Positions 40,793 through 64,000 are shown, counted from the first letter of the stretch. The stretch is 64,000 nucleotides of DNA from Oceanispirochaeta sp. (GCA_963663385.2 CAXXXD010000004.1:672001-736000); one strand, 5' to 3'. Made by a program: numbers and translations. Notes: generated by a model from the letters alone, not told the origin.

Positions 40793-41536
40793 TCAGGAAA
40801 TCAGAATCTCCACACCTGCCTGTTTAATTATATCCCTGTACTCATTGGAGATGCCGTCATCTGTAATCAGGTACTCGATATCTTCGATTCCGCAGTACCG
40901 GGAAAGGGCAATCTTGCCGAATTTACTGGAATCTGTCAGAACAAAAGTCTGGGGGCTGCGTGCAATAATTTCACTGTTGATCTCGGCGCGCATCATGTCC
41001 CGGCCGGTAAATCCGGTTTCAGGAGTAAAGCCGTCTATTCCGACAAAGGCTTTGGAAAAATTGAGTGCATTCAGGCAGAGTTTTACCATATTGCCCACCA
41101 TGCATTCGCTTTCCGGCTGATAGATGCCTCCCAGGAGAATCACTTTGCCCAAGGCATCCTTCCCGATCTGCCTGGCAATAAAGGCGTTGGATGTAATGAT
41201 CGTTGTTTTTGGAATCCGGGAAACCTCTTTGGCAAAAAGGGCATTGATTGACCCCGATTCAATATAAATCGTTTCACCTTCGTCCACGTACTCTGCCGCC
41301 AGTCTGGCTATTTTCAGCTTGCTTTCGTAATTGATTCCCATCCGATGGGAAATATCGTCTGTTTCATCCAGAACGGCTCCGCCATGAACCCGGCGGAGGA
41401 AGCCGTTATTCTCCAGCAGGGTAAGATCCTGCCTTACTGTGGCCTGGGACACTCCCAGCTGATCTGCCAGAGCATTGACTGTAACTTTTCGCCCGTCCGA
41501 CATTATACTCAATATCTGTTTGTGCCTCTCGTTCAT
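40793..41536 (-). CDS. yciT: DeoR family transcriptional regulator, YciT-like
   Basis: VS..TVRQDL..LE...LRR.HG; LGG.YQ..SE.MVG; FSKAF.GIDG..PETGFTGRDMMR, which I recall as characteristic of E. coli YciT. Confidence 0.8.
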   Translation of the reverse strand: MNERHKQILSIMSDGRKVTVNALADQLGVSQATVRQDLTLLENNGFLRRVHGGAVLDETDDISHRMGINYESKLKIARLAAEYVDEGETIYIESGSINALFAKEVSRIPKTTIITSNAFIARQIGKDALGKVILLGGIYQPESECMVGNMVKLCLNALNFSKAFVGIDGFTPETGFTGRDMMRAEINSEIIARSPQTFVLTDSSKFGKIALSRYCGIEDIEYLITDDGISNEYRDIIKQAGVEILIS

Positions 41537-41575
41537 AATCCTGCCATTCCAATTGTTTTTATAATTACTGCCATC

Positions 41576-42028
41576 CTATACGATTCCCTTCAGAATCTCT
41601 ACTGCAAAATCATGATCTTCATAGTCTTTTAACCCCGAAATAGTAAGAACCGCCACCAGACCGGAACCTTTTATCTGTATGGGGAACGCTCCGCCTTTCA
41701 GGCGGTATCTGTCAGGATTGAGGAAATTATTCTGTCTGATATCTTTTTTATTCTGCTTGAAATAATCAGCCATATAGAGAGAACTGTGCAGAAAGTGATA
41801 GCAGACGCGTTTCTTCCCTTCAATCCAGAGAGCATTATCCGGACCGGTTCCGGGAAGGGCCGCATGAAACAGGCATTGCCCGTATCTGTCAATATCAATC
41901 ACAACCGGGAGATTCCTTTCAAGGGCTATCCCGGCAGCCAGCCGGCCCATTTCCCAGGCGGTTGTATTTGAAAATGTTGCAAGCTGAAGATTTTCTTCCT
42001 CATTCAGCAGTTCGTCCAGATTTTTCAC
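41576..42028 (-). CDS. Heme-degrading-domain (UPF0303/GlcG-like) protein
   Basis: F....AW.MG, PGT.PDN..W...K, GGAFPI, TISGL..EDH; GTG start. Confidence 0.8.
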   Translation of the reverse strand: MKNLDELLNEEENLQLATFSNTTAWEMGRLAAGIALERNLPVVIDIDRYGQCLFHAALPGTGPDNALWIEGKKRVCYHFLHSSLYMADYFKQNKKDIRQNNFLNPDRYRLKGGAFPIQIKGSGLVAVLTISGLKDYEDHDFAVEILKGIV

Positions 42029-42050
42029 AATAAAAACCCCGGAAATATAT

Positions 42051-42084
42051 TTTCGAATGAAATCTTTAAAACAGTCATATGAAA
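42051..42084. promoter_or_regulatory. Operator pair (TTTCATATGAAA-like), 22-bp spacing
   Basis: TTTCGAATGAAA at 42051; AGTCATATGAAA at 42073. Confidence 0.6.
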
Positions 42085-42210
42085 ATAGTATGCTGGTGTT
42101 TTTCCGGTTTGTCAATGAATTCTGTTTGCTGTTTGAACTGTACCAACAGCATGGGATTATATAGAATGGAAATCCATAGAGATAATCCGGAGAGGAAAAA
42201 GGGGCTTTTT

Positions 42211-43332
42211 ATGAATAAAATCGGAATAGCTATGGCAGGATTCGGGGCAATCGGACGGATACATCTATTGGCATACAGGGATATTCCCCATTTCTACCCG
42301 GGACAACTGCCCGGGATTCGTCTGTCAGGAGTGCTTCGTTCAACTAAAGAAGCATCAGACGCTACAGCCCGGGAGGCGGGATTTGAGAAGGGGTATGCTG
42401 ATTATCAGGAAATCCTGGATGATCCCGCTGTGGATGTGATTGATCTTGCCACACCTAATTATCTTCATAAGGAGCAGATTCTGCAGGCTTTGAGAGCCGG
42501 AAAGCATGTTCTTTGCGAAAAACCCCTTGCTCTCAACGGCGGTGAGTCGGTGGAAATACTGAAGGAGCTGGACCGATCGGACTGTCAGGTAGGGATGATA
42601 TACAATTACCGGTTTGTTCCTGCCATAATAAAAGCAAAGGAGCTGATCGGCCAGGGCCGTCTGGGAGAGATTTACACTTTCAGGGGGGAGTATTTTCATA
42701 CGGGCTATCAGAATCCTGCAAGACCCTTCAGCTGGCGGATGGATTTCAGCCGTTCCGGGGGAGGAGCTCTCGCCGATCTCGGAGTTCATGTGATAGATCT
42801 TCTGAATTATCTTCTGGGAGATTTTTCAACGGTCAGGGCGGAATTGGAAACGTATATCACGGAGAGACCTGCAGCAGGTGATTCAGGAAGAATGGATGCC
42901 GTTACAGTGGATGATGCCGCCTGGCTGCAATGTATGCTGAATGACGGAGGGAAGGGAACAATAGAAGTTTCCCGCTTTGCAACGGGAACTCTTGATGAGT
43001 TGAATCTGGCTGTCTACGGAAGCAGGGGCGCATTCCGGTTTAATCTGATGGATCCGGGTTACCTTTACTGGTTTGACGAAGAGAAGAAGGAGATGGGGTG
43101 GAACCGCCTTGAAACCCTGCAGCATTACGATGGAGCCGTTATTCCCAATCCCCGATCTGTTGTAGGATGGACGCGTTTTCATTTGGAGAATCAGTACCGT
43201 TTTCTGAAATCTCTTCGGGATAATACTGTTTTCCATCCCGGAGCCATAGACGGAGCACGGGCTCAATTTGTACTGGATGCTGCTTATAGAAGCGGGCAGA
43301 CAGGGCAAATCGAACCGGTCCGGCAGATCTAG
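42211..43332 (+). CDS. Gfo/Idh/MocA family oxidoreductase
   Basis: GFGAIG, AGKHVLCEKP, YRF.P, GGGALADLGVH.ID. Confidence 0.92.
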   Translation: MNKIGIAMAGFGAIGRIHLLAYRDIPHFYPGQLPGIRLSGVLRSTKEASDATAREAGFEKGYADYQEILDDPAVDVIDLATPNYLHKEQILQALRAGKHVLCEKPLALNGGESVEILKELDRSDCQVGMIYNYRFVPAIIKAKELIGQGRLGEIYTFRGEYFHTGYQNPARPFSWRMDFSRSGGGALADLGVHVIDLLNYLLGDFSTVRAELETYITERPAAGDSGRMDAVTVDDAAWLQCMLNDGGKGTIEVSRFATGTLDELNLAVYGSRGAFRFNLMDPGYLYWFDEEKKEMGWNRLETLQHYDGAVIPNPRSVVGWTRFHLENQYRFLKSLRDNTVFHPGAIDGARAQFVLDAAYRSGQTGQIEPVRQI

Positions 43333-43628
43333 TCAGTAAGATAATCGAAAACCAGAACATCCTTTAACAGCGGTCCGGCAAATTCGCTGAACACCACATG
43401 ATGAGGGTGTGTCAGGTAGCTGTCCCGTTCCTTCTCACCGGCGAAACTCACCACATAGGCATCTGTAAATCCATGGTGTCTGTTTTCCACGCTTACATCT
43501 TTTCCCGATTCAAATGAAAGAATTTCTGGAATCAGAGACGGTAATGTACTAAATTTTTCATGAAGGGCGGTTAACTGTTCATCACTGGCCTCCTTTTTAT
43601 ATGAAAATAGAACTATATGTTTAACCAT
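43329..43628 (-). CDS. Dabb (stress-responsive alpha/beta barrel) family protein
   Basis: MVKHIVLF...IP.I..FE.G...Y..HP.H...LVFDY. Confidence 0.88.
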   Translation of the reverse strand: MVKHIVLFSYKKEASDEQLTALHEKFSTLPSLIPEILSFESGKDVSVENRHHGFTDAYVVSFAGEKERDSYLTHPHHVVFSEFAGPLLKDVLVFDYLTD

Positions 43629-43805: not shown

Positions 43806-45092
43806 ATGAAGAAAGTATCAATCAGTCTGATCGCACTGTTGCTGATGTCAGCTATGGCACTGTTTGCGGGGGGGCAGAAAGAGCAGGGAGCCGCTGAGGA
43901 AGCTGTTGATGGAAACAATGTGGAAGTTCTGCACTGGTGGACATCCGGTGGTGAGGCGGCTGCGCTGAATGTACTGAAAGAGGATCTTGAAAAGAAGGGT
44001 ATTACCTGGACCGATTCCCCTGTGGCAGGGGGAGGCGGAGATCAGGCTATGACTGTTCTTCGTTCCAGAGCAACAGCCGGGAACCCCCCTGTAGCTGTAC
44101 AGATGCTCGGTTTTGATATTATTGACTGGGCTGAACTTGGATTCCTGGCCAATCTGAACGATGTCGCCCGTGATGAAAACTGGGATTCGGTTGTTCCCGA
44201 AGCACTGAAGTTTTTCTCAAAACAGGACGGTGTATGGGTTGCGGCTCCTGTAAATGTTCACTCAACCAACTGGGTCTGGGCCAATAAAGAGATTATGGAC
44301 GGCCTCGGAATTGCCGAACCCAAAACATGGGACGAATTTATCGCGGCCATGGAAAAAGTCAAGGCTTCCGGTAAAATCGCTCTGGCACACGGCGGACAGG
44401 CATGGCAGGATGCAACCATGTTTGACAGCTGTGTAATTGCGGCAGGCGGACCTGAATTCTACAAGAAAACCATGATCGATCTGGATGATGCAGCTCTTCG
44501 GTCTGCAACAATGGCTGATGCGTTTAACAAAATGGCCCAGCTGAGAAGCTTTGTGGATGACAACTTTTCCGGCAGAGACTGGAACCTGGCTTCTGCCATG
44601 GTTATTGAAGGACAGGCCTGTTTCCAGATGATGGGTGACTGGGCCAAGGGTGAGTTTAAAAACGCCGGTCTGGAACCTGGAAAGGATTTTTACTTTTTCA
44701 GAACCCCCGGAACAGAAGGAACCGTCACCTTCAATTCCGATCAGTTTGTTATGTTTGATGTAGATGATGTCTATAAGGATGCCCAGAAAGAACTGGCCAA
44801 AGCCATTATGACTCCCAGTTTCCAGATTGCCTTCAACCTGGTTAAGGGATCTGTTCCTGCCAGAACCGATATCTCCGATGCCGAGTTTGATGCAGCCGGT
44901 AAAAAAGGTATGAAAGATCTGGCGGAAGCTGCCCAAAACGGTACCCTTTTCGGTTCCATGGGTCATGGACATGCTGTTCCTGCCGGAATCAAACAGGCCA
45001 TGTATGATGTTGTGACTTCTCACTTCAATGGTGTTTATGACGGTCAACAGGCTGCCAATGATCTGGCTGATGCTGTTGCAGCTGCCAAATAA
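43806..45092 (+). CDS. Sugar ABC (CUT1) substrate-binding protein, glucose/mannose GtsA-like
   Basis: [54 protein letters not shown]. Confidence 0.9.
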
Positions 45093-45113
45093 GAAATAAG
45101 TCGAATTACAATC

Positions 45114-45143
45114 AAGCTGCCCGTATAATAATGCGGGCAGCTT
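45114..45143 (+). terminator. Intercistronic hairpin/terminator after the SBP gene
   Basis: AAGCTGCCCGTA-TAATAA-TGCGGGCAGCTT. Confidence 0.6.
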
Positions 45144-45174
45144 TAACTGACTGTTTTCCAAAGGATTAAAATCT

Positions 45175-46059
45175 ATGACTCTAAACAGCAAATGGCGTTT
45201 TACCAAGGATGATCTTACAGCCAGGTTCGTACTTCTGCCGACCCTCATTCTGACATTCGTTTTTGTTTACGCCTTTATTATCTTTACCATTTATATTTCA
45301 TTTACCAATTCCAGATTAATGCCCTCCTATGAATGGGTGGGGATACAGAACTATGTAAAAATGTTTAAGCTTGCACACTGGCATACAGCATTGAAGAACT
45401 TTGCCATCTTCAGTGTTCTCTATATATCCATTTCAACTTTACTTGGTCTGTTTCTGGCGATTCTTGTAGACTGGAGCAAGCTGGGAGAAAGAGTCTTCCG
45501 GCCTATCTATCTCTATCCTATGGCAATCTCCTTTATTGTTACCGGTACAGCCTGGAAATGGTTTCTCGACCCCGGTATCGGACTGGAACAGATTATGCAT
45601 GCCTGGGGATTCGCCAATTTTAAATTCAACTGGATAAAGGATTCGAATTTTGCCATTTATACCATAGTCATTGCCGCAGTCTGGCAGGTAACCGGATATG
45701 TTATGACCATGTTTCTGGCGGGGCTTCGTGCAGTCAATCATGCGACTATCGAATCGGCCGTTGTAGACGGGGCAGGGGCATGGAAACTATATACCAGAAT
45801 CATTATCCCCCAGCTGGGACCGTCATTTACATCTGTTTTTGTTATATTGGGACATATGGCGATCAAGTCGTACGACCTGGTTATTGCACTGACAAACGGC
45901 GGCCCGGGACGGGCAACCGAACTGCCTTCCACCTTTATGTACTCCTACACTTTTACCAGGAATCAGATGGGAGTCGGAGCCAGTTCCGCTGTATTTATGC
46001 TGGTATTATTTGCCATCATCATCATCCCCTATATCAAAAGTATTGTGAAGGATCGTTAA
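45175..46059 (+). CDS. CUT1 sugar ABC permease (GtsB-like)
   Basis: IYLYPMA.SF.VTG.AWKW, EAA loop ESA.VDGA, IKSYDLV.ALT.GGPG. Confidence 0.9.
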   Translation: MTLNSKWRFTKDDLTARFVLLPTLILTFVFVYAFIIFTIYISFTNSRLMPSYEWVGIQNYVKMFKLAHWHTALKNFAIFSVLYISISTLLGLFLAILVDWSKLGERVFRPIYLYPMAISFIVTGTAWKWFLDPGIGLEQIMHAWGFANFKFNWIKDSNFAIYTIVIAAVWQVTGYVMTMFLAGLRAVNHATIESAVVDGAGAWKLYTRIIIPQLGPSFTSVFVILGHMAIKSYDLVIALTNGGPGRATELPSTFMYSYTFTRNQMGVGASSAVFMLVLFAIIIIPYIKSIVKDR

Positions 46060-46062
46060 GGT

Positions 46063-46935
46063 ATGACTATAAAAGATACAATGCGTATGCATAAAGCGGC
46101 GGGGTATGTCATCTACTTTTTAATGATAATCTTTGCCATATTTTTTCTGACGCCCCTGTATGTCATGGTCGTCAATTCATTTAAACCTCTTGAAGAGATC
46201 CGGGGAGGGAACATGCTGGCTCTTCCCCAGGCTTTTCAGCTCATCCCCTGGGGAACGGCCTGGTCCAAGGCTCAGATAGGTGTACAGGCTACCGGTCTCA
46301 GGCCCTATTTTCTGAATTCCATCAAAATGGTAATCCCTGCGGTATTCATGTCTACGCTGATGGGGTCTCTGGGCGGATTTGTTTTGTCCAAGTGGCAGTA
46401 TCCGGGGGATAAGCTCCTCTTCGGTCTGATCCTTTTCGGCTGCTTTATCCCTTTCCAGATTGTGCTTATTCCCACCGCCCGCGTGCTGGGCAGTATGCAC
46501 CTTGCCGGCACAACCAGCGGCCTGGTTCTGGTTCATACGGTCTACGGGCTGGGGTTTACCACCCTGTTTTTCAAGAATACCTACGACAGTTTCCCGGCGG
46601 AACTGGTTCAGTCCGCCCAGGTGGACGGGGCCCATTTCTTCAAGATTTTCAGGGATATTATCCTTCCCAATTCCACTCCGATTATCGTTGTATCCGTTAT
46701 CTGGCAGACAACCAATATCTGGAATGACTTTCTGTTCGGAGTATCCTTCGGGGATGCCACATCCCAGCCCATGACGGTTGCCCTGAACAATCTGGTCAGT
46801 TCTTCCACGGGTGTGAAAGAGTACAATGTCCATTTTGCGGGCGCTCTTATGGCAGCCCTGCCTACTCTTACCATCTATATGGTATCGGGGCGTTACTTTG
46901 TCCGCGGGCTGATGTCCGGATCAGTTAAGGGGTAG
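46063..46935 (+). CDS. CUT1 sugar ABC permease (GtsC-like)
   Basis: GCFIPFQ, P.EL...A.VDGA, IWQ.T.IWNDFLFG, YFVRGL..GSVKG. Confidence 0.9.
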   Translation: MTIKDTMRMHKAAGYVIYFLMIIFAIFFLTPLYVMVVNSFKPLEEIRGGNMLALPQAFQLIPWGTAWSKAQIGVQATGLRPYFLNSIKMVIPAVFMSTLMGSLGGFVLSKWQYPGDKLLFGLILFGCFIPFQIVLIPTARVLGSMHLAGTTSGLVLVHTVYGLGFTTLFFKNTYDSFPAELVQSAQVDGAHFFKIFRDIILPNSTPIIVVSVIWQTTNIWNDFLFGVSFGDATSQPMTVALNNLVSSSTGVKEYNVHFAGALMAALPTLTIYMVSGRYFVRGLMSGSVKG

Positions 46936-47041: not shown

Positions 47042-48007
47042 ATGTCAGAAAAATTAATATGCGGTGTGGATCTGGGCGGCACCAAACTGTCGGCGGCTCT
47101 GTTTAAACAGGACGGCTCTCTTGTGGGAAAAGAGACTGTCTACGATCATAGCGATAAAGAGTGGGATGATATCGTCCGGATAATCGCCGGTCTGTTAACC
47201 CGCCTGTTTGAGTCCTGCTCGGTGAAAAAGAGGAACGTTCTGGGAATCGGTGTTGCCCTGGCCGGGCATATCCATTTTAAAAAGGGAATGATTGTCACGG
47301 TCAGCAATTTTGCCCATAACATTTACAATTACCCCTTTGTGGATAAACTGTCTGCCCTGTTTCCCGGAGTCAGGATTATCCTGGATAATGATGCCAATGC
47401 CCAGGCTTACGGAGAGTACAAGTTCGGGGCGGGAAGGGGCTATCAGGACCTGGTTTTTGTAACGGTCAGCACCGGAATAGGCGGCGGGATTGTTCTGAAC
47501 GGAAAGATGCTCCGTGGAAAGGTGGGAACCGCCGGAGAAGTCGGGCATTCCATTATCGATATCGATTCGGATGTCAAGTGTACCTGCGGGAATTACGGCT
47601 GCGCCATGGCACTGGCTTCAGGGCTGTTTTTTCCGGACCTCTACCGGATGCACCTGAAAAAAGGGATGAAAAGCACCATCGGTATAACAGAGGAGTCCGC
47701 AGGTGAAATGGACGGGAAAGCGATAGAAGACGGAATGAATGCCGGCGATCCCATCTGCCAGGCCATTGTGGACAATTCGGCTGATGTGGTTGGTTCGACT
47801 CTTTACAATATCTATAAAATGCTGGATCCCGAACTGGTTATCCTGGGGGGCGGCCTGATGTCCTTCGGAGACTACTATATAAACCGGATAAAAGAACGCT
47901 TTATGTCCCATACCCATGAGATGATGGCCGAGGAGATGGAAATCAAACTGGCCGAAACCGGACGGGATGCTGGGCTTCTGGGAGGCGCTGCTCTGGTTCT
48001 GGAGTGA
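47042..48007 (+). CDS. ROK family sugar kinase 1
   Basis: GVDLGGTK, DNDANA, STGIGGG, GEVGH, CTCGNYGC (Zn site), LGGG; no HTH. Confidence 0.9.
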   Translation: MSEKLICGVDLGGTKLSAALFKQDGSLVGKETVYDHSDKEWDDIVRIIAGLLTRLFESCSVKKRNVLGIGVALAGHIHFKKGMIVTVSNFAHNIYNYPFVDKLSALFPGVRIILDNDANAQAYGEYKFGAGRGYQDLVFVTVSTGIGGGIVLNGKMLRGKVGTAGEVGHSIIDIDSDVKCTCGNYGCAMALASGLFFPDLYRMHLKKGMKSTIGITEESAGEMDGKAIEDGMNAGDPICQAIVDNSADVVGSTLYNIYKMLDPELVILGGGLMSFGDYYINRIKERFMSHTHEMMAEEMEIKLAETGRDAGLLGGAALVLE

Positions 48008-48044: not shown

Positions 48045-48077
48045 ACCGCTGCTTCTGTGAAAGCGGCGGTTTTTTTT
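48045..48077 (+). terminator. Rho-independent terminator
   Basis: ACCGCTGCTT-CTGTGA-AAGCGGCGGT-T7. Confidence 0.75.
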
Positions 48078-49102
48078 CAGTTTAAGTCCCTGATACTTTC
48101 CCGTTCAATCAGCTTGCCTCCGAAAACCACCTTGGCAGGAGGGGAATCGGCATCTTCAAGAATCCGGTCGGTAAGAAGCTGGACAGCCATTCTTCCCATA
48201 CGGTGTTTGCTTACCTCGATGGTTGTCATTCCCGGGGTGCTCATGGATGTTATGGGAAGATTGTCAAAACCGCAGAGGGATATATCGCCGGGGACATTGT
48301 AACCGGTCTCGGTAAGGGCTTTTAGGCAGCCGCAGGCAATAATATCATTGGCACAGAAAAAAGCCGTAGGGAGAATATCATTCTTGCTGAGTTTTTCCAT
48401 CATATCCGTATAGGCCCCGTTAAACGTTGAATCTACGGAAAAGGAAAGATCCTTCTGGTAGGGGATTTCCAGGCGATTGAGGCTCTCCCTGAAAGCCGCC
48501 TCCCTTATCCTGAAATTGGGAGTGGGGTGGATACTGCTTATCATGCCTATCTCTCTGTGTCCCTTTCGGGCAAAATTATTAATAATCTGCCACACCGAAT
48601 CTTCGTTATTCATGTCGATAAAATCAAACCGCAGGTATTTATAGAAGCTGTCCAGAAATACAATAGGTTTTTCGATAACCGAGAAAGCCTCCACATCCTG
48701 GTAACTCAATTCCGTTCCCAGGATAATTACACCTGAATCATCGCTCTTCTGAACATAATCAACAATTTCCTCTATGGGCGTTGTTTTGTAAGTAACCAGT
48801 TTCAGACTGAAGTTTTCATTTTTGGCCTCTTTGCTCATTCCCCGGATATAATCCGCAATAAAGACATCATGATCCCTGTTTAGAATATGACCGTGTCTGG
48901 CAATCTGAAGAAAGCAGATCGAACCGGTTTCATCGTTTGCATTCTGTCTGGTGGAAGGACCTTTGTACTCAAATTCTCTGATGATGGATTGAATACGATC
49001 TCTTGTTTCCTGTCCAACTCCCGGCTTGTTGTTTATAACCAATGAGACTGTAGCGGGAGAAACGCCGGCTTCCTCTGCAATATCCTTAATTCTTACACCC
49101 AT
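48077..49102 (-). CDS. LacI family transcriptional regulator
   Basis: IKDIAEEAGVSPATVS.VIN.K.GV; FCAND..A; VPGDIS..GFDN; IERES. Confidence 0.93.
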   Translation of the reverse strand: MGVRIKDIAEEAGVSPATVSLVINNKPGVGQETRDRIQSIIREFEYKGPSTRQNANDETGSICFLQIARHGHILNRDHDVFIADYIRGMSKEAKNENFSLKLVTYKTTPIEEIVDYVQKSDDSGVIILGTELSYQDVEAFSVIEKPIVFLDSFYKYLRFDFIDMNNEDSVWQIINNFARKGHREIGMISSIHPTPNFRIREAAFRESLNRLEIPYQKDLSFSVDSTFNGAYTDMMEKLSKNDILPTAFFCANDIIACGCLKALTETGYNVPGDISLCGFDNLPITSMSTPGMTTIEVSKHRMGRMAVQLLTDRILEDADSPPAKVVFGGKLIERESIRDLN

Positions 49103-49141
49103 AAGGTTACTTTATATGTGTTTTGAGAATATGGCAAGAAA

Positions 49142-49296
49142 AACTAAAATTTAATTAAAAACAACTAAAATAATAGTTGTTTGCTATTCTGCATGTAGCG
49201 AAAATGGTGATCCATGTTGGCTTTAATACAGTAAAAATGGTTTATCAACTAAAAATTACTAAAATAAATTGACAGATATTTAATTGATGTTACAAT
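49142..49296 (+). promoter_or_regulatory. Promoter and candidate LacI operators of the ABC/rhaM operon
   Basis: TTGACA(49269)-N16-TACAAT(49291) with extended TG; palindrome ACAACTA-N6-TAGTTGT at 49161-49180; repeated ACTAAAA half-sites. Confidence 0.55.
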
Positions 49297-49329
49297 TGGT
49301 TTATATCCACAAGTTAAAGGAGTTTTGAT

Positions 49330-50355: not shown

Positions 50356-50370
50356 TTACCCGGTTTGAGG

Positions 50371-50402
50371 AAGGGCTACCTCTGAATGGGGTAGCCCTTT
50401 TT
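50371..50402 (+). terminator. Intercistronic terminator/stabiliser
   Basis: AAGGGCTACC...GGTAGCCCTTTTT. Confidence 0.6.
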
Positions 50403-55611: not shown

Positions 55612-55725
55612 GAAAGTGAACAGCTTGCGCTTAGTGAAATAGGGTTTGATTCCAGAGCTGAGTCGGGATTCAAAATCTGCGAGGCCCTGCCTGGATAAAA
55701 TATGTATCTATCAAAAGGAGAGAGT

Positions 55726-56682: not shown

Positions 56683-56774
56683 TAATTTGTCATGTAAAAA
56701 AGTAGAAATGACTCGTTTCGGGCTGGACCGGAACGGGTCATCCTGTCGGAACAATTGTTATGAGGTTAGGGAGA

Positions 56775-58280
56775 ATGAAAGAAAAGGAACCGGAAGTCAT
56801 TCTATCGGTTAAGGATGTAAGTAAGGCATTTCCGGGAGTTAAAGCTCTGGATCAGGTTTCCATTGATGTCCAGAGAGGATCTGTCCATGGAATTGTAGGA
56901 GAAAACGGCGCCGGTAAGTCGACTCTGATGAAAATACTGTCCGGAGTATACAGGAAAGACTCCGGAACCATTATTTTTGATGGGGAAAATATCAAAACCA
57001 CAACCCCTCTGCAGTCAATGCAGAGGGGGCTGAGTATTATTTACCAGGAGTTGAACCTTGTTGACACCATGACCGTTGGTGAGAACGTATTCCTGGGCCG
57101 GTTCAAGGAACTGAGGGGGATGCGGAATACCCATGCCAGGGCAAAAGAACTTTTGAACAGTATCGCCTGTTCTATTGATACACATACAATGATTTCGGAA
57201 TTGAGTGTTTCCGAAAAACAGATGGTGGAGATAACCAAGGCACTGTCGTTTGATTCAAAACTGATAATAATGGATGAACCCAGCAGCAGTTTGACAAGCG
57301 AAGAAATGAATGAGCTGGAAGTGATTATTCATCAGCTGAAAGAGAAAGGAATCTCCATTATTTATATCAGTCACAAACTGGATGAAATCTTTGATTTCTG
57401 TGACCGTGTTACTGTTATGCGCGACGGGAAGGTTATCGATACAAAACCGATTGGAGAAATTGACCGCAGCGAGATGATAGCCAAAATGGTCGGCCGTACC
57501 ATTGAGAACGAATTCCCCGAACGGCCCCGCTGTGTCGGCGGTACACTGATGAAAGTTCAGTCCATCAATACTTCCAGGCTGAGTAATGTTTCATTTGAAC
57601 TGAAGAAAGGGGAGATCCTCGGATTAGTCGGACTGGTAGGGGCCGGCCGGACAGAAATTGTCCGGGCGATTTTCGGAGCCGACAAGGTAAAGGGTCATAA
57701 GATATCCATCAACGGAAATCCGGTTAAAATCAGAAAACCCTCTGATGCCAAAAAGGCCGGGGTCTGTCTTGTTCCCGAAGACCGGAAACTCCAGGGGCTT
57801 GTTCTGCCATTTTCTGTTGAATCCAATATCACTCTTGCCAGTCTGGATAGAATCACCAGGTTCGGATTTTTGAATAAATCGAAAGAGAAAGAGATTGCAG
57901 AGAAACATATAAAAAGACTGGGAGTTAAAACGCCATCGGCAAAAACCCGGGTTGAAAGCCTTTCGGGGGGGAATCAGCAGAAATGCATTGTCGGCCGGTG
58001 GATGGAACTCGACCCGAGCATCCTTATTCTGGATGAACCTACCAGGGGAATTGATGTAGGGGCCAAGTTTGAAATCTATCTTCTTATGAAACAGATTGTA
58101 GAGAACGGCGGTTCCGTAATTCTTATTTCCTCGGAACTTCCGGAAGTTCTTAATATGAGTAATCGTGTTTTGACCATTTGTGACGGGCGGATTACCGGAG
58201 AGTTTAATCCTGAAGAAGCCTCTGCAGATGCCATTATGGCGAAGTCTCTGGAATTTAAAGATAAAGGAGCTGCACAATGA
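56775..58280 (+). CDS. CUT2 sugar ABC ATP-binding protein
   Basis: GENGAGKST, MDEP.SSL, YISHKL, VPEDRK, LSGGNQQK, LDEPTRG. Confidence 0.93.
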   Translation: MKEKEPEVILSVKDVSKAFPGVKALDQVSIDVQRGSVHGIVGENGAGKSTLMKILSGVYRKDSGTIIFDGENIKTTTPLQSMQRGLSIIYQELNLVDTMTVGENVFLGRFKELRGMRNTHARAKELLNSIACSIDTHTMISELSVSEKQMVEITKALSFDSKLIIMDEPSSSLTSEEMNELEVIIHQLKEKGISIIYISHKLDEIFDFCDRVTVMRDGKVIDTKPIGEIDRSEMIAKMVGRTIENEFPERPRCVGGTLMKVQSINTSRLSNVSFELKKGEILGLVGLVGAGRTEIVRAIFGADKVKGHKISINGNPVKIRKPSDAKKAGVCLVPEDRKLQGLVLPFSVESNITLASLDRITRFGFLNKSKEKEIAEKHIKRLGVKTPSAKTRVESLSGGNQQKCIVGRWMELDPSILILDEPTRGIDVGAKFEIYLLMKQIVENGGSVILISSELPEVLNMSNRVLTICDGRITGEFNPEEASADAIMAKSLEFKDKGAAQ

Positions 58281-59284
58281 TGGACCAGTTGACCCTGAAA
58301 AATGGATTATTGAATAGGAAGCCCGATATGGCCGGCTGCTTTTCATCACTCTTTAAGGAGTACCTTGTTCTAGCCGCTATCGGTCTGCTGGTTCTGGTAA
58401 CAGCTATTGCTGAACCGAAATTCCTGTCTGCGGCAAACCTGACTAATATTATGCGGCAGTTCGGACCATTGATTATGGTGGCTCTGGGCATGACATTTGT
58501 TATTATCGGCGGATTTATAGATCTTTCGGTGGCCGGCATTATGTCGCTGGTAGCTGTTGTCACTCTATCGCTTATTGAACCTCTCGGGCAGATTCCCGCC
58601 TTGATCCTCGGACTGAGCCTGGGAGCCTTCTGCGGTTTATTCAACAGTTTTCTTGTCCTGGTCAGCGGTGCTGTAACACAGGCGGAGGCGCTTTTCATCA
58701 CTTTCGGTATGAGTGTCGTCTATGGCGGAGCCGCTTTGATCTATACAGGCGGCGTGACCGATCATATGAGCTATATAGAAAGAGATTATTCGGTTTTTAC
58801 AAGTATAGGGACAGGAACACTGGGTATTTTCTCGGTATCGTTTCTGATTTTTCTCTTTGCCCTTTTTGTACTTTTTATTTTTCAGAGCAAAACCTATATG
58901 GGAAGAACCATCAGCCTTATCGGAGGGAATAAAACCGCCGCCGGATTATCGGGAATCTCAATAGGCAAGGGTATTATGACGATCTATACCGTATCAGGTT
59001 TGATGACAGCTCTCGGAGCCATTGTCCTTTTTTCCAGGGTCACAACGGCATCTCCCGTTATCGGAAAAAACTTTGATACAAATGCCATCCTGGCTGTTGT
59101 CGTAGGCGGGACCTCTCTGTCGGGAGGGAAAGGCAGTGTTATCCGGACCGTTCTGGGAACAATGCTGGTTATTCTTCTTGCCAACTGCATGAATCTTCTG
59201 GGTGTTTCTGTCTATATGCAGAATGTTATGAAAGGGGCCATCCTTATCCTGGCCATCTGGCTGGACAGCCGAAAACAGAAATAG
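58277..59284 (+). CDS. CUT2 sugar ABC permease
   Basis: GMTFVII.G.IDLSV, AVVVGGTSL.GG.G. Confidence 0.9.
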   Translation: MMDQLTLKNGLLNRKPDMAGCFSSLFKEYLVLAAIGLLVLVTAIAEPKFLSAANLTNIMRQFGPLIMVALGMTFVIIGGFIDLSVAGIMSLVAVVTLSLIEPLGQIPALILGLSLGAFCGLFNSFLVLVSGAVTQAEALFITFGMSVVYGGAALIYTGGVTDHMSYIERDYSVFTSIGTGTLGIFSVSFLIFLFALFVLFIFQSKTYMGRTISLIGGNKTAAGLSGISIGKGIMTIYTVSGLMTALGAIVLFSRVTTASPVIGKNFDTNAILAVVVGGTSLSGGKGSVIRTVLGTMLVILLANCMNLLGVSVYMQNVMKGAILILAIWLDSRKQK

Positions 59285-59296
59285 GAGATTCCCTGA

Positions 59297-60256
59297 ATGA
59301 ATGATCTTAATAGAAAATTCTTTATTATGGTAACCAGACAAAAGGCATTCCTGGCAGTTCTTGCCATGTTTTTTATGATGCTTTTTTTTAAAACCAATTT
59401 CTTTACAGGTTTTAATCTTTTCGATCTTGTGAATTCCGCCTCTATTCTGCTTATACTGGCGTTTGGCATTACCCTTGTAATCATAGCCGGCGGGATTGAT
59501 CTTTCCATAGGCGGGACTATGGCTCTGTCCGGCATTATCTGTATTAAATTTCTGAACTCGATGCCAATAGTCCCGGCGATTACGGGAACCCTTCTCGTGG
59601 GAGCTCTAATCGGCATGGTTAACGGTTATCTGGTTGTGTATCAGAAAACTGAGCCCTTTATCATCACTCTGGGAATGGGTATTTTCCTGACGGGACTGGC
59701 CCAGCAGATTACGGACGCCCATCCCATTGCAGCCTCAAATCTCAATTTTATGATGATTGCCAACGGGCGGCTGTTTAATGTTATCCCCAATCTCGTGATT
59801 ATAATGCTGCTGGTATTTGCCGTAACATTCCGGATTCTCCGTTATACCCAGTTTGGAAGAAACTGTTATGCCGTTGGAGGAGACTATGACGTGGCAAAAT
59901 ACTCCGGGATCAATGTCCGGCGGATCAGATCGGCTACATATGTACTGTGCGGTACTGCCGCGGCTCTGGGAGGGGTCATGCTCTCTTCCAAGCTGAACTC
60001 AGGTTCCTCCGTTTACGGGGATGCTACCGCTCTGACTGTTATCAGCGGTGTTGTTGTAGGAGGAACATCCCTGGCCGGCGGTGTAGGGGGTGTCACCCAG
60101 ACGGCAGTCGGGCTCCTTGTGTTCGGTGTTATGGAAAATGCCATGAATATGCTGGGGATCGATTCCTATGTACAGATGATCCTGCGGGGGGTTGTTATTG
60201 TGAGCATCCTCTGTCTTGACAGCTACGGTCGCAAGCGCAAACGGGAAGCCGTATAA
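59297..60256 (+). CDS. CUT2 sugar ABC permease
   Basis: GGIDLSIG, PFIITLG, FGR..YAVGG, VVGGTSLAGG.G. Confidence 0.9.
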   Translation: MNDLNRKFFIMVTRQKAFLAVLAMFFMMLFFKTNFFTGFNLFDLVNSASILLILAFGITLVIIAGGIDLSIGGTMALSGIICIKFLNSMPIVPAITGTLLVGALIGMVNGYLVVYQKTEPFIITLGMGIFLTGLAQQITDAHPIAASNLNFMMIANGRLFNVIPNLVIIMLLVFAVTFRILRYTQFGRNCYAVGGDYDVAKYSGINVRRIRSATYVLCGTAAALGGVMLSSKLNSGSSVYGDATALTVISGVVVGGTSLAGGVGGVTQTAVGLLVFGVMENAMNMLGIDSYVQMILRGVVIVSILCLDSYGRKRKREAV

Positions 60257-60260: not shown

Positions 60261-61226
60261 ATGGAGAAATTACTGTGCGGCGTGGATCTGGGAGGAACGA
60301 AACTTGCGGCGGCTCTCTTCAAACAGGATGGAACCCTGATCGCTAAAAAGCTTGTATACGATCACCGGAAGGACTCCTGTGATGAAGTTGTTCAGGTCAT
60401 TGTCGAACTTCTGGGGAAACTCTTTAGGGAGAATGGAGTAGACACCGCCCGGATTGCGGGAATCGGAACAGCACTGGCCGGTCATATACTGTACGAAGAA
60501 GGTAAAATCATCACCACAAGTAATTTCCCGGTCAACATGCAGGGGTATCCCTTTGCAGACAGACTGGGCGCTTACTTTCCCGGTGTGAAAATCCTGCTGG
60601 ACAATGATGCCAACGCCCAGGCCTACGGAGAGTATAAATATGGCGCCGGGCGGGGCTCCGGATCACTGGTTTTTGTTACGGTCAGTACAGGACTCGGCAG
60701 CGGGATAATCCTGGATGGAAAGGTGATTCGGGGGCAGAGCGGTACGGCGGGAGAGATCGGACACTGTATCGTTGATTATAAATCCGATGTAAGGTGCAGC
60801 TGCGGTAATTTCGGCTGTGCCATGGCACTGGCTTCGGGACTGTTCTTTCCTGATCTTTACAGTATGTATATGAAACAAGGTCTTTACAGCACTATTGATA
60901 TAACAGAAGAGAATGTCGGTCAGGTTGACGGCAGGATGATTCTGGAGGGGATTCGCGCAGAAGATCCTGTTTCCTGTGCGGTTGCGGAAAATTCGGCTGT
61001 TGTTGTAGGAACCAGCCTCTTCAATATCTTCTCAATGCTGGATCCGGAACTTGTCGTTCTCGGCGGTGGTCTGATGGCTCTCGGGAAAGACTATATTAAG
61101 CGGATCATTGAGGAATTTCACTCTCATACCCATGGAATGATGTATAGGGAGATGAAGATCAAGCTGGCTGAAACCGGTGCTGACGCCGGATTGTTGGGAG
61201 CCGCTTCACTTATTCTGGAGGGGTAA
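60261..61226 (+). CDS. ROK family sugar kinase 2 (paralog of 47042-48007)
   Basis: GVDLGGTK, DNDANAQAYGEYK, GEIGH, CSCGNFGCAMALASG. Confidence 0.9.
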   Translation: MEKLLCGVDLGGTKLAAALFKQDGTLIAKKLVYDHRKDSCDEVVQVIVELLGKLFRENGVDTARIAGIGTALAGHILYEEGKIITTSNFPVNMQGYPFADRLGAYFPGVKILLDNDANAQAYGEYKYGAGRGSGSLVFVTVSTGLGSGIILDGKVIRGQSGTAGEIGHCIVDYKSDVRCSCGNFGCAMALASGLFFPDLYSMYMKQGLYSTIDITEENVGQVDGRMILEGIRAEDPVSCAVAENSAVVVGTSLFNIFSMLDPELVVLGGGLMALGKDYIKRIIEEFHSHTHGMMYREMKIKLAETGADAGLLGAASLILEG

Positions 61227-61302: not shown

Positions 61303-61459
61303 GCCGTCCGGAAACTGCCCGGTTCAGATCAGTTCCTCTTTTTTGTCTACCGGAGGCGATCGTCTACTGATTGTTCCGGGTGCCGATTACTATAGGCCCG
61401 TCAGAAATGAATGCGGAATGGATGCGGGTTGATAAAGGGAGCAACCCGCAGAAATCCGG

Positions 61460-62329
61460 TTAGTTCATATTGAGAAAATACTCTCTGACACACCTGGCAA
61501 CAGCATCGGAGGTTTCGGAAAATATGATTCCCTTTGAGCGGATAAGGGACGTATCCAGACGGGCGTCACGGGGTTTGTCCGCATACTTCTCCTCATCCCG
61601 GATTACCAGTTCCGGGATGCGGTGTTCCAGACCCATTTCCTTCAGAATCTGACAGACCACATCATACCGGTTCTTTTTGTTCTCTGCTCCCACATGGTAG
61701 GTTCCGGGAGGAAGGTTCATAATTTTATCGAACTGATCCATGAGCTCATTGACATAGGTGAGCCCGCGGTACTCGTTGCAGGGAACCCTCATCGGTTCAT
61801 TCCTCATTACGGATTTTACCGTATCCCAGAAGATATTATTCACAACAGGCCTGTTCCTCTCGGGAACGCCGAACATCCAGGTAAAGCGGAGGATGATCAG
61901 ATCGCCCAGAATGTCCTTGATTTTACCTTCCGCTTCCAGCTTGTTCCTGCCGTACATGGTATCGGGAACAGGGGTGTCTGTCTCTTTATAGGGACCGGGA
62001 TCGGGGTTGCCGTTGAATACCTGCTCCGTACTGAGAAAGATCATCCTGGCGCCTGTCTCCCTGCAGGCTTCTGCTATATTGACCGCCCCGTCCACATTGA
62101 TGGCATGGCATTTTTCGGGATTTTTATTACAGAAATCCGTCAGGGCTATGGCAGCCGCATGAATCACATAATCGGGCTTGTAAAGCTTGAAGGCATCCAG
62201 GATTTTATCCTTTTCAAGAATATTCAGTTCCTGTACGTCCGTAGCCAGTATTTCATAGTTATGATGATGAGCTTCCCGGAATCGGGTCCCGATAAAACCG
62301 TTCCCGCCGGTCAGAAGAACTCTTTTCAT
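61460..62329 (-). CDS. RmlD-like (extended SDR) NAD(P)-dependent oxidoreductase
   Basis: TGGNGFIG, PD.VIHAAA, N..G..N.A, STE.VF.G, PY.E.D...P...YG..K. Confidence 0.85.
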   Translation of the reverse strand: MKRVLLTGGNGFIGTRFREAHHHNYEILATDVQELNILEKDKILDAFKLYKPDYVIHAAAIALTDFCNKNPEKCHAINVDGAVNIAEACRETGARMIFLSTEQVFNGNPDPGPYKETDTPVPDTMYGRNKLEAEGKIKDILGDLIILRFTWMFGVPERNRPVVNNIFWDTVKSVMRNEPMRVPCNEYRGLTYVNELMDQFDKIMNLPPGTYHVGAENKKNRYDVVCQILKEMGLEHRIPELVIRDEEKYADKPRDARLDTSLIRSKGIIFSETSDAVARCVREYFLNMN

Positions 62330-62407
62330 TCCTCTCTCCTTGTTTTCTGTTTTTTATCTGATTTTTCGAATATTATACACTAATCTGTAAAATAAAGATA
62401 GACTAAT

Positions 62408-62440
62408 TTTCATATGATAGTATATAATTTTCATATGATA
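62408..62440. promoter_or_regulatory. Operator pair, 21-bp spacing, in the divergent RmlD-like/GRE intergenic region
   Basis: TTTCATATGATA at 62408 and 62429. Confidence 0.7.
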
Positions 62441-62457
62441 AATATTGGAGGTGCGTT

Positions 62458-64000
62458 GTGTCTGATATCTCAATGCTGAAATCCATGAAAATTGAAGAGG
62501 AAATCCTCAGTTTAAAGAATAAGATAATGGGTGAAGAGCGGATTGTTTCAATGGAACAGGCTGTCAGTATCACCAGATCCTATAAAGAGAATCCCGGTGA
62601 TCCGGTTGTTCTGCAGAGGGCAAAGGCCTTTTCCCGCTCCCTTGAAGAAATCCCTGTAAGGATTGATCCGGAAGAAAGGATTGTCGGAAACAGAACCCCC
62701 GGTATCCGCAGCGGTGTCGTATTTCCCGAAGCGGGCCTTTCCTGGCTGGAGAGGGAGTTTGATACCCTCCACAGCAGACCTCAGGACAAATTCCGCCAGT
62801 CCAGTAAAGACCTGGAAATCCTTTTCGGCTATCTTCTGCCTTTCTGGAAGGGGCATACCCTGGAAGACTATATCGGGAGGGAGAAGGGGACGGAGATAAA
62901 GGAGATCGGCAAGGTTGTAAAAATCAACCAGAAGGATCATGCCCAGGGGCATATCGCTCCCGACTGCATTTCCTGGTTAAAACAAGGACCGGCCGGTCTG
63001 GCGCAGCAGTACCGGACGGCCCTGAAAGGATCTTCCGGTTCCCGTCGAGATTTCTATCAGGCCGTGGTGATCGTTCTGGAGGCCGCCAGCGCCTATATGC
63101 TCCGCTATGCGGAACAGGCGAAGAAACAGGCCGGTGAATCGGAATGGATGATGGAAACTTCCCGGATCTGCCGGAAACTGGCCGTGGAACCTCCCGAAAC
63201 GTTTCATGAAGCCCTTCAATCGCTCTGGTTTCTCTTTGTTCTCCTTCAGGCGGAATCCAATGCTTCCTCCTTCTCTCCCGGACGGCTGGATCAGTACCTG
63301 TACCCTTTTCTGAAAGGGGATCTTGATTCGGGTCGGCTATCTCTGGGAGAAGCTCAGCTTCTGCTGGAGCATCTCTGGTTAAGTTTCAACAAGATTGTGT
63401 ACCTCAGGAATTCAGAGGGGGCCCGTTATTTTGCAGGCTTTCCCATCGGATTCAATGTGGCTGTAGGCGGTCAGACAGAAGACGGCAAAGACGCTTCCAA
63501 TCTCCTTTCCTGGATGTGTCTGAAGGCGCAGGAACATATCGGCCTGCCCCAGCCGAACCTTTCAGTCCGTTTGCATGCGAACAGTCCTGACAGTTTTATT
63601 GATTTCAGTTCCCGGGTTATCGGTCTGGGCAGCGGGATGCCCCAGATTTTTAATGACGAGAGTATAATCCCGGCTCTGGAAAATGTGGGAATCTCCCATT
63701 CTGATGCCATGAACTATGCTGTAGTAGGGTGCGTTGAACTGACGACTCCCGGGAACAACCTGGGATGGAGTGATGCGGCCATGTTCAATCTGGTGAAGGC
63801 GCTGGAGATGGCCCTGAACAATGGTGTCTGTCTGCAGACGGAAGAGCAGATAGGTCCCCGTTTCGGCTCTCTTGAAGATTTTAAAAGTTTCGATGAACTG
63901 GAAGAGGCATTCCGGAAACAGATGGACTACTATATAGACCGGATGATGGGGATCTGTGATTTTGTCGACCGGGCCCATGCCGAAATCCTTCCGTCTCCCT
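62458..64000 (+). CDS. Glycyl radical enzyme, PflD-like; truncated by the window end and absent from the ORF track
   Basis: Manual translation from GTG after GGAGG: ...IVGNRT...RPQDKF...INQKDHAQGHI...ESNASSFSPGRLDQY...ARYFAGFPIG...LPQPNLSVR...GMPQIFNDE...VVGCVEL.TPG..GWSDAAMFNL.K. Catalytic Cys at 63730-63732; frame open to 64000. Confidence 0.9.
   Translation, partial: MSDISMLKSMKIEEEILSLKNKIMGEERIVSMEQAVSITRSYKENPGDPVVLQRAKAFSRSLEEIPVRIDPEERIVGNRTPGIRSGVVFPEAGLSWLEREFDTLHSRPQDKFRQSSKDLEILFGYLLPFWKGHTLEDYIGREKGTEIKEIGKVVKINQKDHAQGHIAPDCISWLKQGPAGLAQQYRTALKGSSGSRRDFYQAVVIVLEAASAYMLRYAEQAKKQAGESEWMMETSRICRKLAVEPPETFHEALQSLWFLFVLLQAESNASSFSPGRLDQYLYPFLKGDLDSGRLSLGEAQLLLEHLWLSFNKIVYLRNSEGARYFAGFPIGFNVAVGGQTEDGKDASNLLSWMCLKAQEHIGLPQPNLSVRLHANSPDSFIDFSSRVIGLGSGMPQIFNDESIIPALENVGISHSDAMNYAVVGCVELTTPGNNLGWSDAAMFNLVKALEMALNNGVCLQTEEQIGPRFGSLEDFKSFDELEEAFRKQMDYYIDRMMGICDFVDRAHAEILPSP

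What the first reader, a model, noticed from the sequence alone, without database searches (positions are those of the whole stretch)
40793..64000. Candidate PTS-independent 1,5-anhydrohexitol radical catabolism regulon (ABC + ROK kinases + PflD-like glycyl radical enzyme + YciT-like repressor)
Seen: a shared operator precedes the DeoR/UPF0303-Gfo/Idh/MocA pair, the Dabb-CUT1 ABC-ROK1 unit, the CUT2 ABC-ROK2 unit and the RmlD-like/GRE pair. The GRE has PflD-type motifs and the DeoR protein resembles YciT. Established, from recall: E. coli PflD and YbiW isomerise 1,5-anhydromannitol-6-P and 1,5-anhydroglucitol-6-P; YciT binds at the ybiY/ybiW locus; a Gfo/Idh/MocA enzyme reduces 1,5-anhydro-D-fructose to 1,5-anhydromannitol. 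Inference: here ABC import plus ROK phosphorylation replaces PTS, and the Gfo and RmlD-like reductases interconvert anhydrosugars upstream of the GRE.
Basis: partly seen in the sequence, partly recalled or inferred. Interest (0 to 1): 0.82.

Follow-up and report, generated by a model that had tools for sequence, protein, structure and literature searches.

The report
PTS-free anhydro-sugar regulon with YciT boxes
A spirochaete gene cluster marked by the DNA box found at E. coli YciT-repressor sites encodes two sugar importers, two unusual kinases and a glycyl-radical enzyme that likely break down 1,5-anhydro-sugars (starch by-products) by an ATP-driven variant of the known "anhydroglycolysis" route.

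Summary
Observation confirmed, interpretation largely supported with corrections. Tandem boxes (TTTCATATGAAA-like, 21-22 bp apart) precede all four units. In E. coli 6 of 10 such boxes lie in YciT ChIP-exo peaks and 3 more in YciT-repressed ybi promoters; the window's DeoR is 47% identical to YciT. The GRE (783 aa, activase just past the window) groups with E. coli PflD (support 1.0) but is only 43% identical, with fixed motif changes. Both ROK kinases keep the catalytic residues but have Met where the sugar 1-OH-binding acid normally sits; Met-type ROKs lie beside YbiW/PflD-type genes in 45 of 49 metagenome loci, Glu-type in 0 of 21. The CUT1 importer is 59-66% identical to the one beside rhizobial anhydrofructose reductase. 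No PTS EIIC was found in this 98%-complete genome. Corrections: 48.1-55.3 kb is an unrelated LacI unit; the Gfo resembles levoglucosan dehydrogenase, not Afr; no FSA aldolase was found; a YbiW ortholog lies on another contig. No activity was tested. The scan already reported PTS-free anhydroglycolysis loci on other DNA. New variant of a known pathway.

The parts
40793..41536 (-). DeoR-family repressor, YciT-like (247 aa)
   Evidence: 47% identity to E. coli YciT; best NCBIfam YciT 249 bits < 450 cut-off; same T-[IV]-R-Q-D-L recognition helix
41576..42028 (-). UPF0303/HbpS-like protein, role unknown; likely co-transcribed with the repressor (probable GTG start; ORF finder start 42115)
   Evidence: conserved in the cluster in G003, G007, G008, G009, G018, L008, L009
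42051..42084 (.). Tandem YciT-type boxes (22-bp spacing) between UPF0303 and Gfo; the first equals the E. coli ybi-cluster 12-mer
42211..43332 (+). Gfo/Idh/MocA oxidoreductase of the levoglucosan-dehydrogenase clade
   Evidence: PDB best 6a3f 201 bits, Afr 91-94 bits; NCBIfam LevoglcsnDh 232 < 650
43329..43628 (-). Dabb alpha/beta barrel protein, role unknown
   Evidence: Pfam PF07876; conserved in G003, G007, L009
43703..43735 (.). Tandem boxes (21 bp) overlapping the -35 of the predicted SBP1 promoter
43806..46935 (+). CUT1 ABC importer: SBP1 (43806-45092) and two permeases; no ATPase gene in the unit
   Evidence: 64.5/59/66% identity to the ABC proteins of the S. meliloti cluster holding annotated 1,5-anhydro-D-fructose reductase; PDB best 4r2b
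47042..48007 (+). ROK1 sugar kinase with Met in place of the 1-OH-binding acid
48077..55294 (.). NOT part of the regulon: LacI (48077-49102,-) with CUT2 ABC, RhaM mutarotase and xylose-isomerase-like enzyme; no YciT box
   Evidence: same insert in G007 only among G003/G007/G008/G009
55403..55590 (.). Seven YciT-type boxes in three tandem arrays around the predicted SBP3 promoter (55516-55544)
55702..60256 (+). CUT2 ABC importer: SBP3, ATPase, two permeases
   Evidence: orthologs (56-75% SBP) next to the same GRE in L008, L009, L010, G018
60261..61226 (+). ROK2, Met-type paralog of ROK1 (63% identical)
61460..62329 (-). RmlD-like extended SDR reductase of a separate clade (Thr and YxxxK kept)
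   Evidence: TIGR01214 142 < 224; PDB best 9gpi 185 bits vs about 97 for other RmlD entries; alignment
62408..62440 (.). Tandem boxes (21 bp) inside the predicted GRE promoter (62399-62428)
   Evidence: tandem kept in G003, G006, G007, G008, G009
62458..64000 (+). PflD-clade glycyl radical enzyme, 783 aa; continues to 64809, followed by its activase at 64824-65723 (beyond the window)
   Evidence: AF2 model pLDDT 89

Best explanation
This is a YciT-type regulon in which two ABC importers and two ROK kinases likely replace the E. coli PTS to supply 1,5-anhydrohexitol-6-phosphates, and a PflD-clade glycyl radical enzyme is predicted to ring-open one of them (likely 1,5-anhydromannitol-6-P) to 1-deoxyfructose-6-P. 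Shown here: gene set, boxes, box identity with E. coli YciT sites, GRE clade and activase, kinase motif and its linkage to YbiW/PflD-type genes, lack of PTS EIIC. Inferred: the repressor is released by a pathway sugar phosphate; SBP1 takes up 1,5-anhydrofructose or a 1,5-anhydrohexitol; the Met-ROKs phosphorylate 1-deoxy (1,5-anhydro) hexitols at C6, serving both this GRE and the YbiW ortholog on contig C2; the RmlD-like and Gfo enzymes likely interconvert keto and alcohol forms (C2/C3) to feed the two GREs. How 1-deoxyfructose-6-P is cleaved in this FSA-less genome is unresolved.
For: Box: pattern TTTCRWAYGAAA has 10 sites in E. coli K-12; 6 lie in YciT ChIP-exo peaks, five at one constant offset, 3 sit before ybiU, ybiV and ybiY/fsaA, the genes YciT represses. 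11 of 26 activase-gene upstream regions carry the box vs 1.8 in shuffles. GRE: best solved match PflD 645 bits, YbiW 426; clade with E. coli PflD support 1.0 among 130 representatives; CVE, NASS, ARYFAGFP, YTVSAH, LADGG and RVAGY motifs kept. FSA lies in 9 of 29 orthologous GRE loci, 8 right behind the GRE/activase, pointing to the fructo-configured product. YbiW lies within 10 kb of the GRE in 7 of 9 relatives. ROK: NagK D187 engages the 1'-OH (PMC10031466) and aligns to the CxCxxxGCx[D/E] acid; ROK1/2 have Met there, as do 120 of 120 closest homologs; Met-type 45 of 49 loci with YbiW/GRE/activase vs Glu/Asp-type 0 of 21; 4 of 4 further spirochaete hits sit between YbiW and a YciT-like gene; a separate Glu-type ROK exists at C3:96336. 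SBP1 orthologs flank rhizobial afr. No PF02378, PF03609, PF03611 or PF03608 match in a 98%-complete genome.
Against: GRE is only 43% identical to PflD and below the PRK09983 cut-off (741 < 1109); the whole subfamily differs from both solved PflDs at fixed motif positions (DKG to DHA, PTGY to PIGF, LHDI to WSDA), and Foldseek ranks glycerol dehydratase level with PflD. No FSA-type or GldA homolog found in this genome; FSA also not found in 6 of 9 relatives. Met-ROKs sit almost only beside YbiW (the PflD-like GRE in 1 of 49 loci); other genomes pair this GRE with different kinases. The Gfo is not an Afr ortholog. The two strongest ybi ChIP peaks lie 100-150 bp from the boxes. One relative (G018) has PTS genes about 10 kb from its cluster. 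Related lineages are not independent counts.
Confidence: 0.7

Rival explanations
1. Same architecture, different sugar: the GRE subfamily opens another 1,5-anhydrohexitol-6-P (a C3 or C4 epimer such as the allo/altro or galacto/talo form), and epimerases bring the product back to the fructo form.
For: Fixed motif changes relative to PflD; an Rpe-family protein directly upstream of the Gfo in 6 relatives and one metagenome locus; GatZ/KbaZ-like genes directly upstream of the GRE in L012 and L013; the Gfo is in the C3-dehydrogenase (LGDH) clade.
Against: FSA follows the GRE/activase directly in 8 loci, with no epimerase seen in those maps; this genome lacks the Rpe-like gene at the locus and has only a 27% homolog elsewhere; co-occurrence with YbiW mirrors the E. 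coli gluco/manno pair.
Confidence: 0.17
2. The RmlD-like and Gfo enzymes work downstream of the GRE, giving an FSA-independent lower pathway (for example reduction of 1-deoxyfructose-6-P at C2 and re-oxidation to a 6-deoxy-ketose-1-P, or TPP-dependent cleavage).
For: No FSA in this genome or in 6 of 9 relatives; RmlD-like gene shares the GRE's divergent promoter in 5 relatives; in L033 an E1/E2 dehydrogenase pair precedes a ROK-activase fusion and the GRE.
Against: In L009 the RmlD-like gene and FSA are adjacent, so RmlD does not replace FSA there; no aldolase or TPP enzyme with a conserved box was found.
Confidence: 0.2
3. The Gfo and importers serve a levoglucosan/3-keto-glycoside pathway and the GRE is a neighbour by chance.
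For: Gfo closest to levoglucosan dehydrogenase; GMC oxidoreductase in 5 relatives' clusters.
Against: That pathway needs two TIM-barrel enzymes LgdB1/B2 (PMC7676230); the only TIM barrel here is in the box-less LacI unit and resembles xylose-isomerase-like 3ktc; all units share the box with the GRE, also in relatives.
Confidence: 0.06
4. SBP1-ABC-ROK1 is the cell's ordinary glucose uptake and glucokinase unit.
For: SBP1's closest solved relatives include sugar/glucose-binding proteins; the genome lacks sugar PTS.
Against: ROK1 lacks the 1-OH-binding acid; a Glu-type ROK exists elsewhere; the unit carries YciT boxes.
Confidence: 0.05

Closest known systems
E. coli anhydroglycolysis, PflD/PflC branch (frwCB-pflDC-frwD, ptsA-fsaB-gldA; PDB 8YJO, 8ID0)
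   Same: GRE of the same clade with CxE motif and activase; predicted same ring-opening chemistry (PMC13450708).
   Different: 43% identity with fixed motif changes; ABC + ROK instead of Frw PTS; no FSA or GldA found; boxes present, whereas the E. coli pflD region has none; extra redox genes.
E. coli YciT regulon (ybiUVWY, fsaA) and YbiW/YbiY
   Same: Repressor 47% identical with the same recognition helix and the same 12-bp box; a YbiW ortholog (53%) with activase and a second YciT paralog at C2:445.6-449.8 kb.
   Different: Here the box controls transporters, kinases, reductases and the PflD-like GRE; YbiU/YbiV are not in the cluster; the C2 YbiW promoter lacks the canonical box.
Rhizobial 1,5-anhydro-D-fructose reductase (afr) cluster, S. 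meliloti
   Same: CUT1 SBP and permeases 59-66% identical; relatives also share its GMC oxidoreductase (about 40%).
   Different: Aerobic route via anhydromannitol to mannose (PMC12441222); the window's Gfo is not an Afr ortholog; no GRE there.
ROK sugar kinases (NagK, glucokinase)
   Same: Metal Asp, T10, K11, N104/D105, T132, E154, H157 and zinc cysteines kept.
   Different: The 1-OH-binding Asp/Glu is replaced by Met throughout the subfamily.
Levoglucosan dehydrogenase LgdA (PDB 6A3F)
   Same: Closest solved relative of the Gfo; oxidises C3 of an anhydro-sugar.
   Different: 232 bits vs cut-off 650; LgdB1/B2/C partners absent from the regulon.

Membership tests
PflD (AM6P C-O lyase) | Falls in the PflD clade of GREs rather than YbiW, GD or others | tested here: met
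   FastTree support 1.0 with E. coli PflD among 130 of 150 representatives kept by length; best PDB sequence hits 8yjo, 8id0
PflD (AM6P C-O lyase) | Catalytic Cys-x-Glu and glycyl loop, cognate activase | tested here: met
   GCVE at 424-427, RVAGY near 756, activase adjacent, TIGR02494 336 > 174
PflD (AM6P C-O lyase) | Equivalog-level similarity (PRK09983 cut-off) | tested here: not met
   741 bits < 1109; 43% identity
PflD (AM6P C-O lyase) | Same substrate-contact residues as 8ID0 | tested here: inconclusive
   Most motifs shared, three motif changes fixed in the subfamily; the contact list is in the JACS paper, which was not held
PflD (AM6P C-O lyase) | Converts AM6P to 1-deoxyfructose-6-P | not testable with these tools
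   needs an enzyme assay
Anhydroglycolysis pathway (E. coli type) | PTS import and phosphorylation | tested here: not met
   no match to PF02378, PF03609, PF03611, PF03608 or FrwB/C/D; PF02302 search returned no answer
Anhydroglycolysis pathway (E. coli type) | FSA aldolase and GldA downstream | tested here: not met
   only two about 350-aa transaldolase-type PF00923 genes in unrelated operons; no FsaA/B or GldA hit
YciT | Closest family and reciprocal best match in the genome | tested here: met
   best of 14 genome hits for E. coli YciT, 47%; best NCBIfam model
YciT | NF040887 cut-off | tested here: not met
   249 < 450
YciT | Same DNA box as at E. coli YciT sites | tested here: met
   binding by the spirochaete protein itself not tested
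ROK sugar kinase | Catalytic and ATP/metal residues of NagK | tested here: met
ROK sugar kinase | Acid binding the anomeric 1-OH | tested here: not met
   Met in ROK1, ROK2 and 120 of 120 homologs
1,5-anhydro-D-fructose reductase (Afr) | Closest characterised relative of the Gfo | tested here: not met
   LGDH 201 bits, scyllo-inositol DH 164, Afr 91-94; 36% over only 164 aa, though it is the best Afr hit in the genome
RmlD | TIGR01214 cut-off and rml operon context | tested here: not met
   142 < 224; no rmlABC neighbours

The most novel reading that the evidence does not exclude
Spirochaetes run a complete, undescribed anaerobic 1,5-anhydrofructose pathway: a Met-type ROK family is the dedicated 1,5-anhydrohexitol kinase, RmlD-like, LGDH-like, GMC and Rpe-like enzymes funnel keto and epimeric anhydro-sugars to two GREs, the PflD-sister GRE acts on a third stereoisomer or the product leaves by a new FSA-independent route, and all is read out by a YciT box conserved from E. 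coli to spirochaetes.
Probability: 0.3. Interest if true: 0.75.

Novelty: new variant of a known kind. Interest (0 to 1): 0.52.

Why it matters
It extends anhydroglycolysis to PTS-less anaerobes and gives three directly testable handles: (1) a one-residue signature (Met for the 1-OH-binding acid) that marks a widespread ROK subfamily as candidate 1,5-anhydrohexitol kinases; (2) an explicit YciT box conserved across phyla, which ties the E. coli regulator, so far described as osmolarity- or anaerobiosis-related, to anhydro-sugar catabolism and lets its regulon be predicted in any genome; (3) a link between the aerobic rhizobial anhydrofructose importer and the anaerobic GRE route. The missing aldolase points to an unknown lower pathway. 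The core chemistry is already known, and PTS-free versions were noted by this scan on other DNA.

Tried and rejected
Gfo as Afr ortholog: rejected. FSA in the genome: not found by family and protein searches. A tandem near-box at C4:456999 before an SDR/dehydrogenase/kinase/transketolase operon as the lower pathway: 0 of 10 relatives keep a tandem there, rejected; two other loose pairs (C2:1581139, C3:1525056) were not followed. LacI unit at 48-55 kb as part of the regulon: no box. Foldseek could not separate PflD from glycerol/propanediol dehydratases. RmlD-like profile at E 1e-100 found only its centre genome among 401 of that phylum, so its neighbourhood there could not be surveyed. A fold and Atlas look-up of the RmlD-like protein were not obtained, so the identity of PDB 9gpi stays open. 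Sequencing runs: no RNA holder listed. Papers not held: Ma et al. JACS 2024, PMC3264092, PMC7726757. Literature searches listed no paper on a ROK/ABC-fed anhydroglycolysis or on the YciT box sequence, but the JACS paper and its supplement were unseen and may already show such neighbourhoods; the YciT logo in PMC8464067 Fig. 2C is a figure I could not see.


Full report
Setting. The window is G000:C4:672001-736000 of a 5.3-Mb, 98%-complete genome; the closest titled GRE relatives are Spirochaetales records (79% and 73%). Genes between 40793 and 64000 were called and typed with Pfam and NCBIfam. The GRE runs past the window to 64809 (783 aa) and is followed at once by an activase (64824-65723); then unrelated signalling genes follow.

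The operator. A 12-bp box (consensus TTTCATATGAAA, variants TTTCGAATGAAA, wwTCATAYGAAA) stands in tandem, 21-22 bp apart, at four promoters: UPF0303/Gfo (42051, 42073), Dabb/SBP1 (43703, 43724), SBP3 (seven boxes, 55403-55590) and RmlD-like/GRE (62408, 62429). None precedes the LacI unit, ROK1 or the DeoR gene itself. The core pattern gives 6 tandem pairs genome-wide, all in the window, against about 0.16 expected; a looser rule gives 10, of which 3 lie elsewhere, and the one I tested was not kept in 10 relatives. Because the pattern came from these sites, independent tests matter more. Tandem boxes recur at the same promoters in G003, G006, G007, G008 and G009. In E. coli K-12 the pattern TTTCRWAYGAAA has 10 distinct sites (reversed-pattern control 1 per strand). 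Six fall in YciT ChIP-exo peaks of PMC8464067 (47 of the 49 listed peaks seen): the offsets between genome versions are 787, 1986, 1987, 1987, 1987 and 2008, i.e. five at 10 bases from the peak start given version shifts of 777 and about 1977 that I recall rather than looked up. Three more precede ybiU, ybiV and ybiY/fsaA, the genes the paper's supplement names as repressed by YciT, though they are 100-150 bp from the listed peaks or without one; one site has no peak. The window's DeoR is the genome's best match to YciT (47%) with the same recognition helix. The boxes overlap or abut predicted promoters (such scans are weak evidence). Inference: the DeoR represses four transcription units through YciT boxes.

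The GRE. Best solved matches are E. coli PflD (645 bits) and S. dysgalactiae PflD (610), then glycerol dehydratase (580) and YbiW (426). In a tree of 139 sequences (130 of 150 cluster representatives kept by length 720-880 aa, plus references) it forms a clade with E. coli PflD at support 1.0, as a sister subfamily at 43% identity. PflD and YbiW convert AM6P and AG6P to 1-deoxyfructose-6-P using a CxE motif (review passages). The motifs NASS, ARYFAGFP, GCVE, YTVSAH and LADGG are PflD-like, but three changes are fixed in the subfamily (DH for DK in 119 of 120 homologs, PIGF in 118, WSDA-type in 116). I could not map them onto the AM6P pocket. The AF2 model (pLDDT 89) gave no discrimination in Foldseek. 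Among 29 orthologous loci, FSA is present in 9 and Frw-type PTS genes in 0 (flanks vary in length). Of 40 sampled relatives 9 carry the GRE, and 7 of the 9 have YbiW within 10 kb; here YbiW is on contig C2. AM6P is therefore the most likely substrate (about 55%), another anhydrohexitol phosphate the main alternative.

The kinases. ROK1 and ROK2 (63% identical) keep the residues that NagK mutagenesis shows to be needed (D6, T10, N104, D105, T132, E154, H157; PMC10031466 passages) and the zinc cysteines. That paper states that D187 engages the 1'-OH; D187 is the acid two places after the last zinc cysteine. Both kinases have Met there, as do 120 of 120 closest homologs: what a kinase for a sugar with no 1-OH would be expected to show. 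In a metagenome scan (best 80 of 589 confirmed loci) 49 were Met-type, 21 Glu/Asp-type and 10 other or unread; YbiW/GRE/activase genes were in 45 of 49, 0 of 21 and 1 of 10 (32 of 32 versus 0 of 14 for loci of 5 kb or more). The usual order is activase-YbiW-ROK-YciT, also in 4 of 4 hits among 400 further spirochaete genomes, and 11 of 26 activase upstream regions carry the box versus 1.8 in shuffles. These loci are related and not independent. Only 1 of the 49 shows the PflD-like GRE, so the family is tied most firmly to YbiW; which kinase feeds the window's GRE is open.

Transport. No PTS EIIC of the Glc/Fru/Lac, Man, Gat or Gut families was found. SBP1 and its permeases are 64.5, 59 and 66% identical to the ABC proteins encoded with annotated 1,5-anhydro-D-fructose reductase in S. 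meliloti, with similar order in Roseibium, an independent pointer to anhydro-sugars; close solved relatives include glucose-type binders, so the ligand is not fixed. SBP3 has no close solved relative, but its transporter lies beside the same GRE in L008, L009, L010 and G018.

Redox genes. The Gfo is closest to levoglucosan dehydrogenase, a C3-specific enzyme, not Afr, although it is the best Afr hit in the genome. The RmlD-like protein keeps the SDR triad but is a separate clade (346 homologs at E 1e-40) that shares the GRE's divergent promoter in five relatives. Relatives add a GMC oxidoreductase and an Rpe-family protein. An upstream role interconverting 1,5-anhydrofructose, its 3-keto form and the two alditols is my preferred inference; a downstream role is possible.

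The gap. No FSA-type aldolase or GldA was found here; FSA was also not found with this query in G003, G004, G006, G008, G009 and G020, was clear in G018, and weak or partial in G007 and G016. The fate of the GRE product in these spirochaetes is unexplained.

Literature seen. Passages of PMC13450708, PMC12441222, PMC7676230, PMC10031466, PMC10465942 and bioRxiv 2025.05.13.653802; passages and supplement parts of PMC8464067. The primary paper (Ma et al., JACS 2024) was not held; its text and supplement may already describe kinase/ABC neighbourhoods. Nine searches listed no such description. Earlier scan notes report PTS-free YbiW/PflD loci in other genomes; they are unchecked AI notes and count as leads only.

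Verdict. A real, conserved regulon; a new variant of a known pathway, with no activity shown. What this window adds is the YciT box across phyla, the Met-ROK signature, the link to the rhizobial anhydrofructose importer, and a missing lower pathway. Interest 0.52.

Noticed in passing
G000:C2:445581-449775 (L038:13581-17775): YbiW ortholog (53% to E. coli), its activase and a second YciT paralog (RSDL helix) on another contig; the intergenic region has CGAACGAAA-like variants rather than the canonical box. In 7 of 9 relatives YbiW lies within 10 kb of the window's GRE.
   Followed up: partly
window 48077-55294: Separate LacI-controlled pentose/deoxy-sugar unit: CUT2 ABC (SBP closest to 5bra), RhaM mutarotase, xylose-isomerase-like enzyme closest to 3ktc (recalled, not from a call: 3ktc may be a D-apiose isomerase); tandem AACTAAAA-like repeats in its promoter.
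   Followed up: partly
L009:13323-15149, L010:13284-15119, L011:3119-5041, L059:9514-11346, L065:7148-9022: About 610-aa protein with no Pfam/NCBIfam match but ASKHA/ROK-like motifs, encoded beside the activase of the same GRE subfamily; absent from this genome.
   Followed up: partly
L033:1003-8937: Chloroflexi locus: E1 (alpha-beta fused) and E2 of a 2-oxoacid/acetoin-dehydrogenase-like complex, then a ROK-activase fusion, then the GRE; could cleave the methyl-ketol product to acetyl-CoA plus erythrose-4-P (speculation).
   Followed up: no
L052:12290-14639, L055, L056, L058, L062-L064, L114: Relatives add a GMC oxidoreductase (about 40% to the one in the S. meliloti afr cluster) and an Rpe-family protein with altered metal ligands directly before the Gfo; both are missing from this genome's locus.
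   Followed up: partly
L012:3835-5160, L013:29-1408: GatZ/KbaZ-like gene directly upstream of the GRE, and a Zn-finger-less ROK behind the activase.
   Followed up: no
G000:C3:433160-434236 and C3:270480-271520: Two long transaldolase-family proteins with Gln at the FSA Gln59 position but no Tyr131; in unrelated operons without the box.
   Followed up: partly
G000:C2:730498, C2:1010508, C4:244883: Three further glycyl radical enzymes of other clades in the genome (26-35% to PflD/YbiW).
   Followed up: no
NC_000913.3:863547 and 859079: The E. coli ybiY and ybiU boxes lie about 100 and 150 bp from the listed ChIP-exo peaks; the ybiY box position fits the preprint's remark that its own YciT site is about 100 bases from the ChIP site.
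   Followed up: partly
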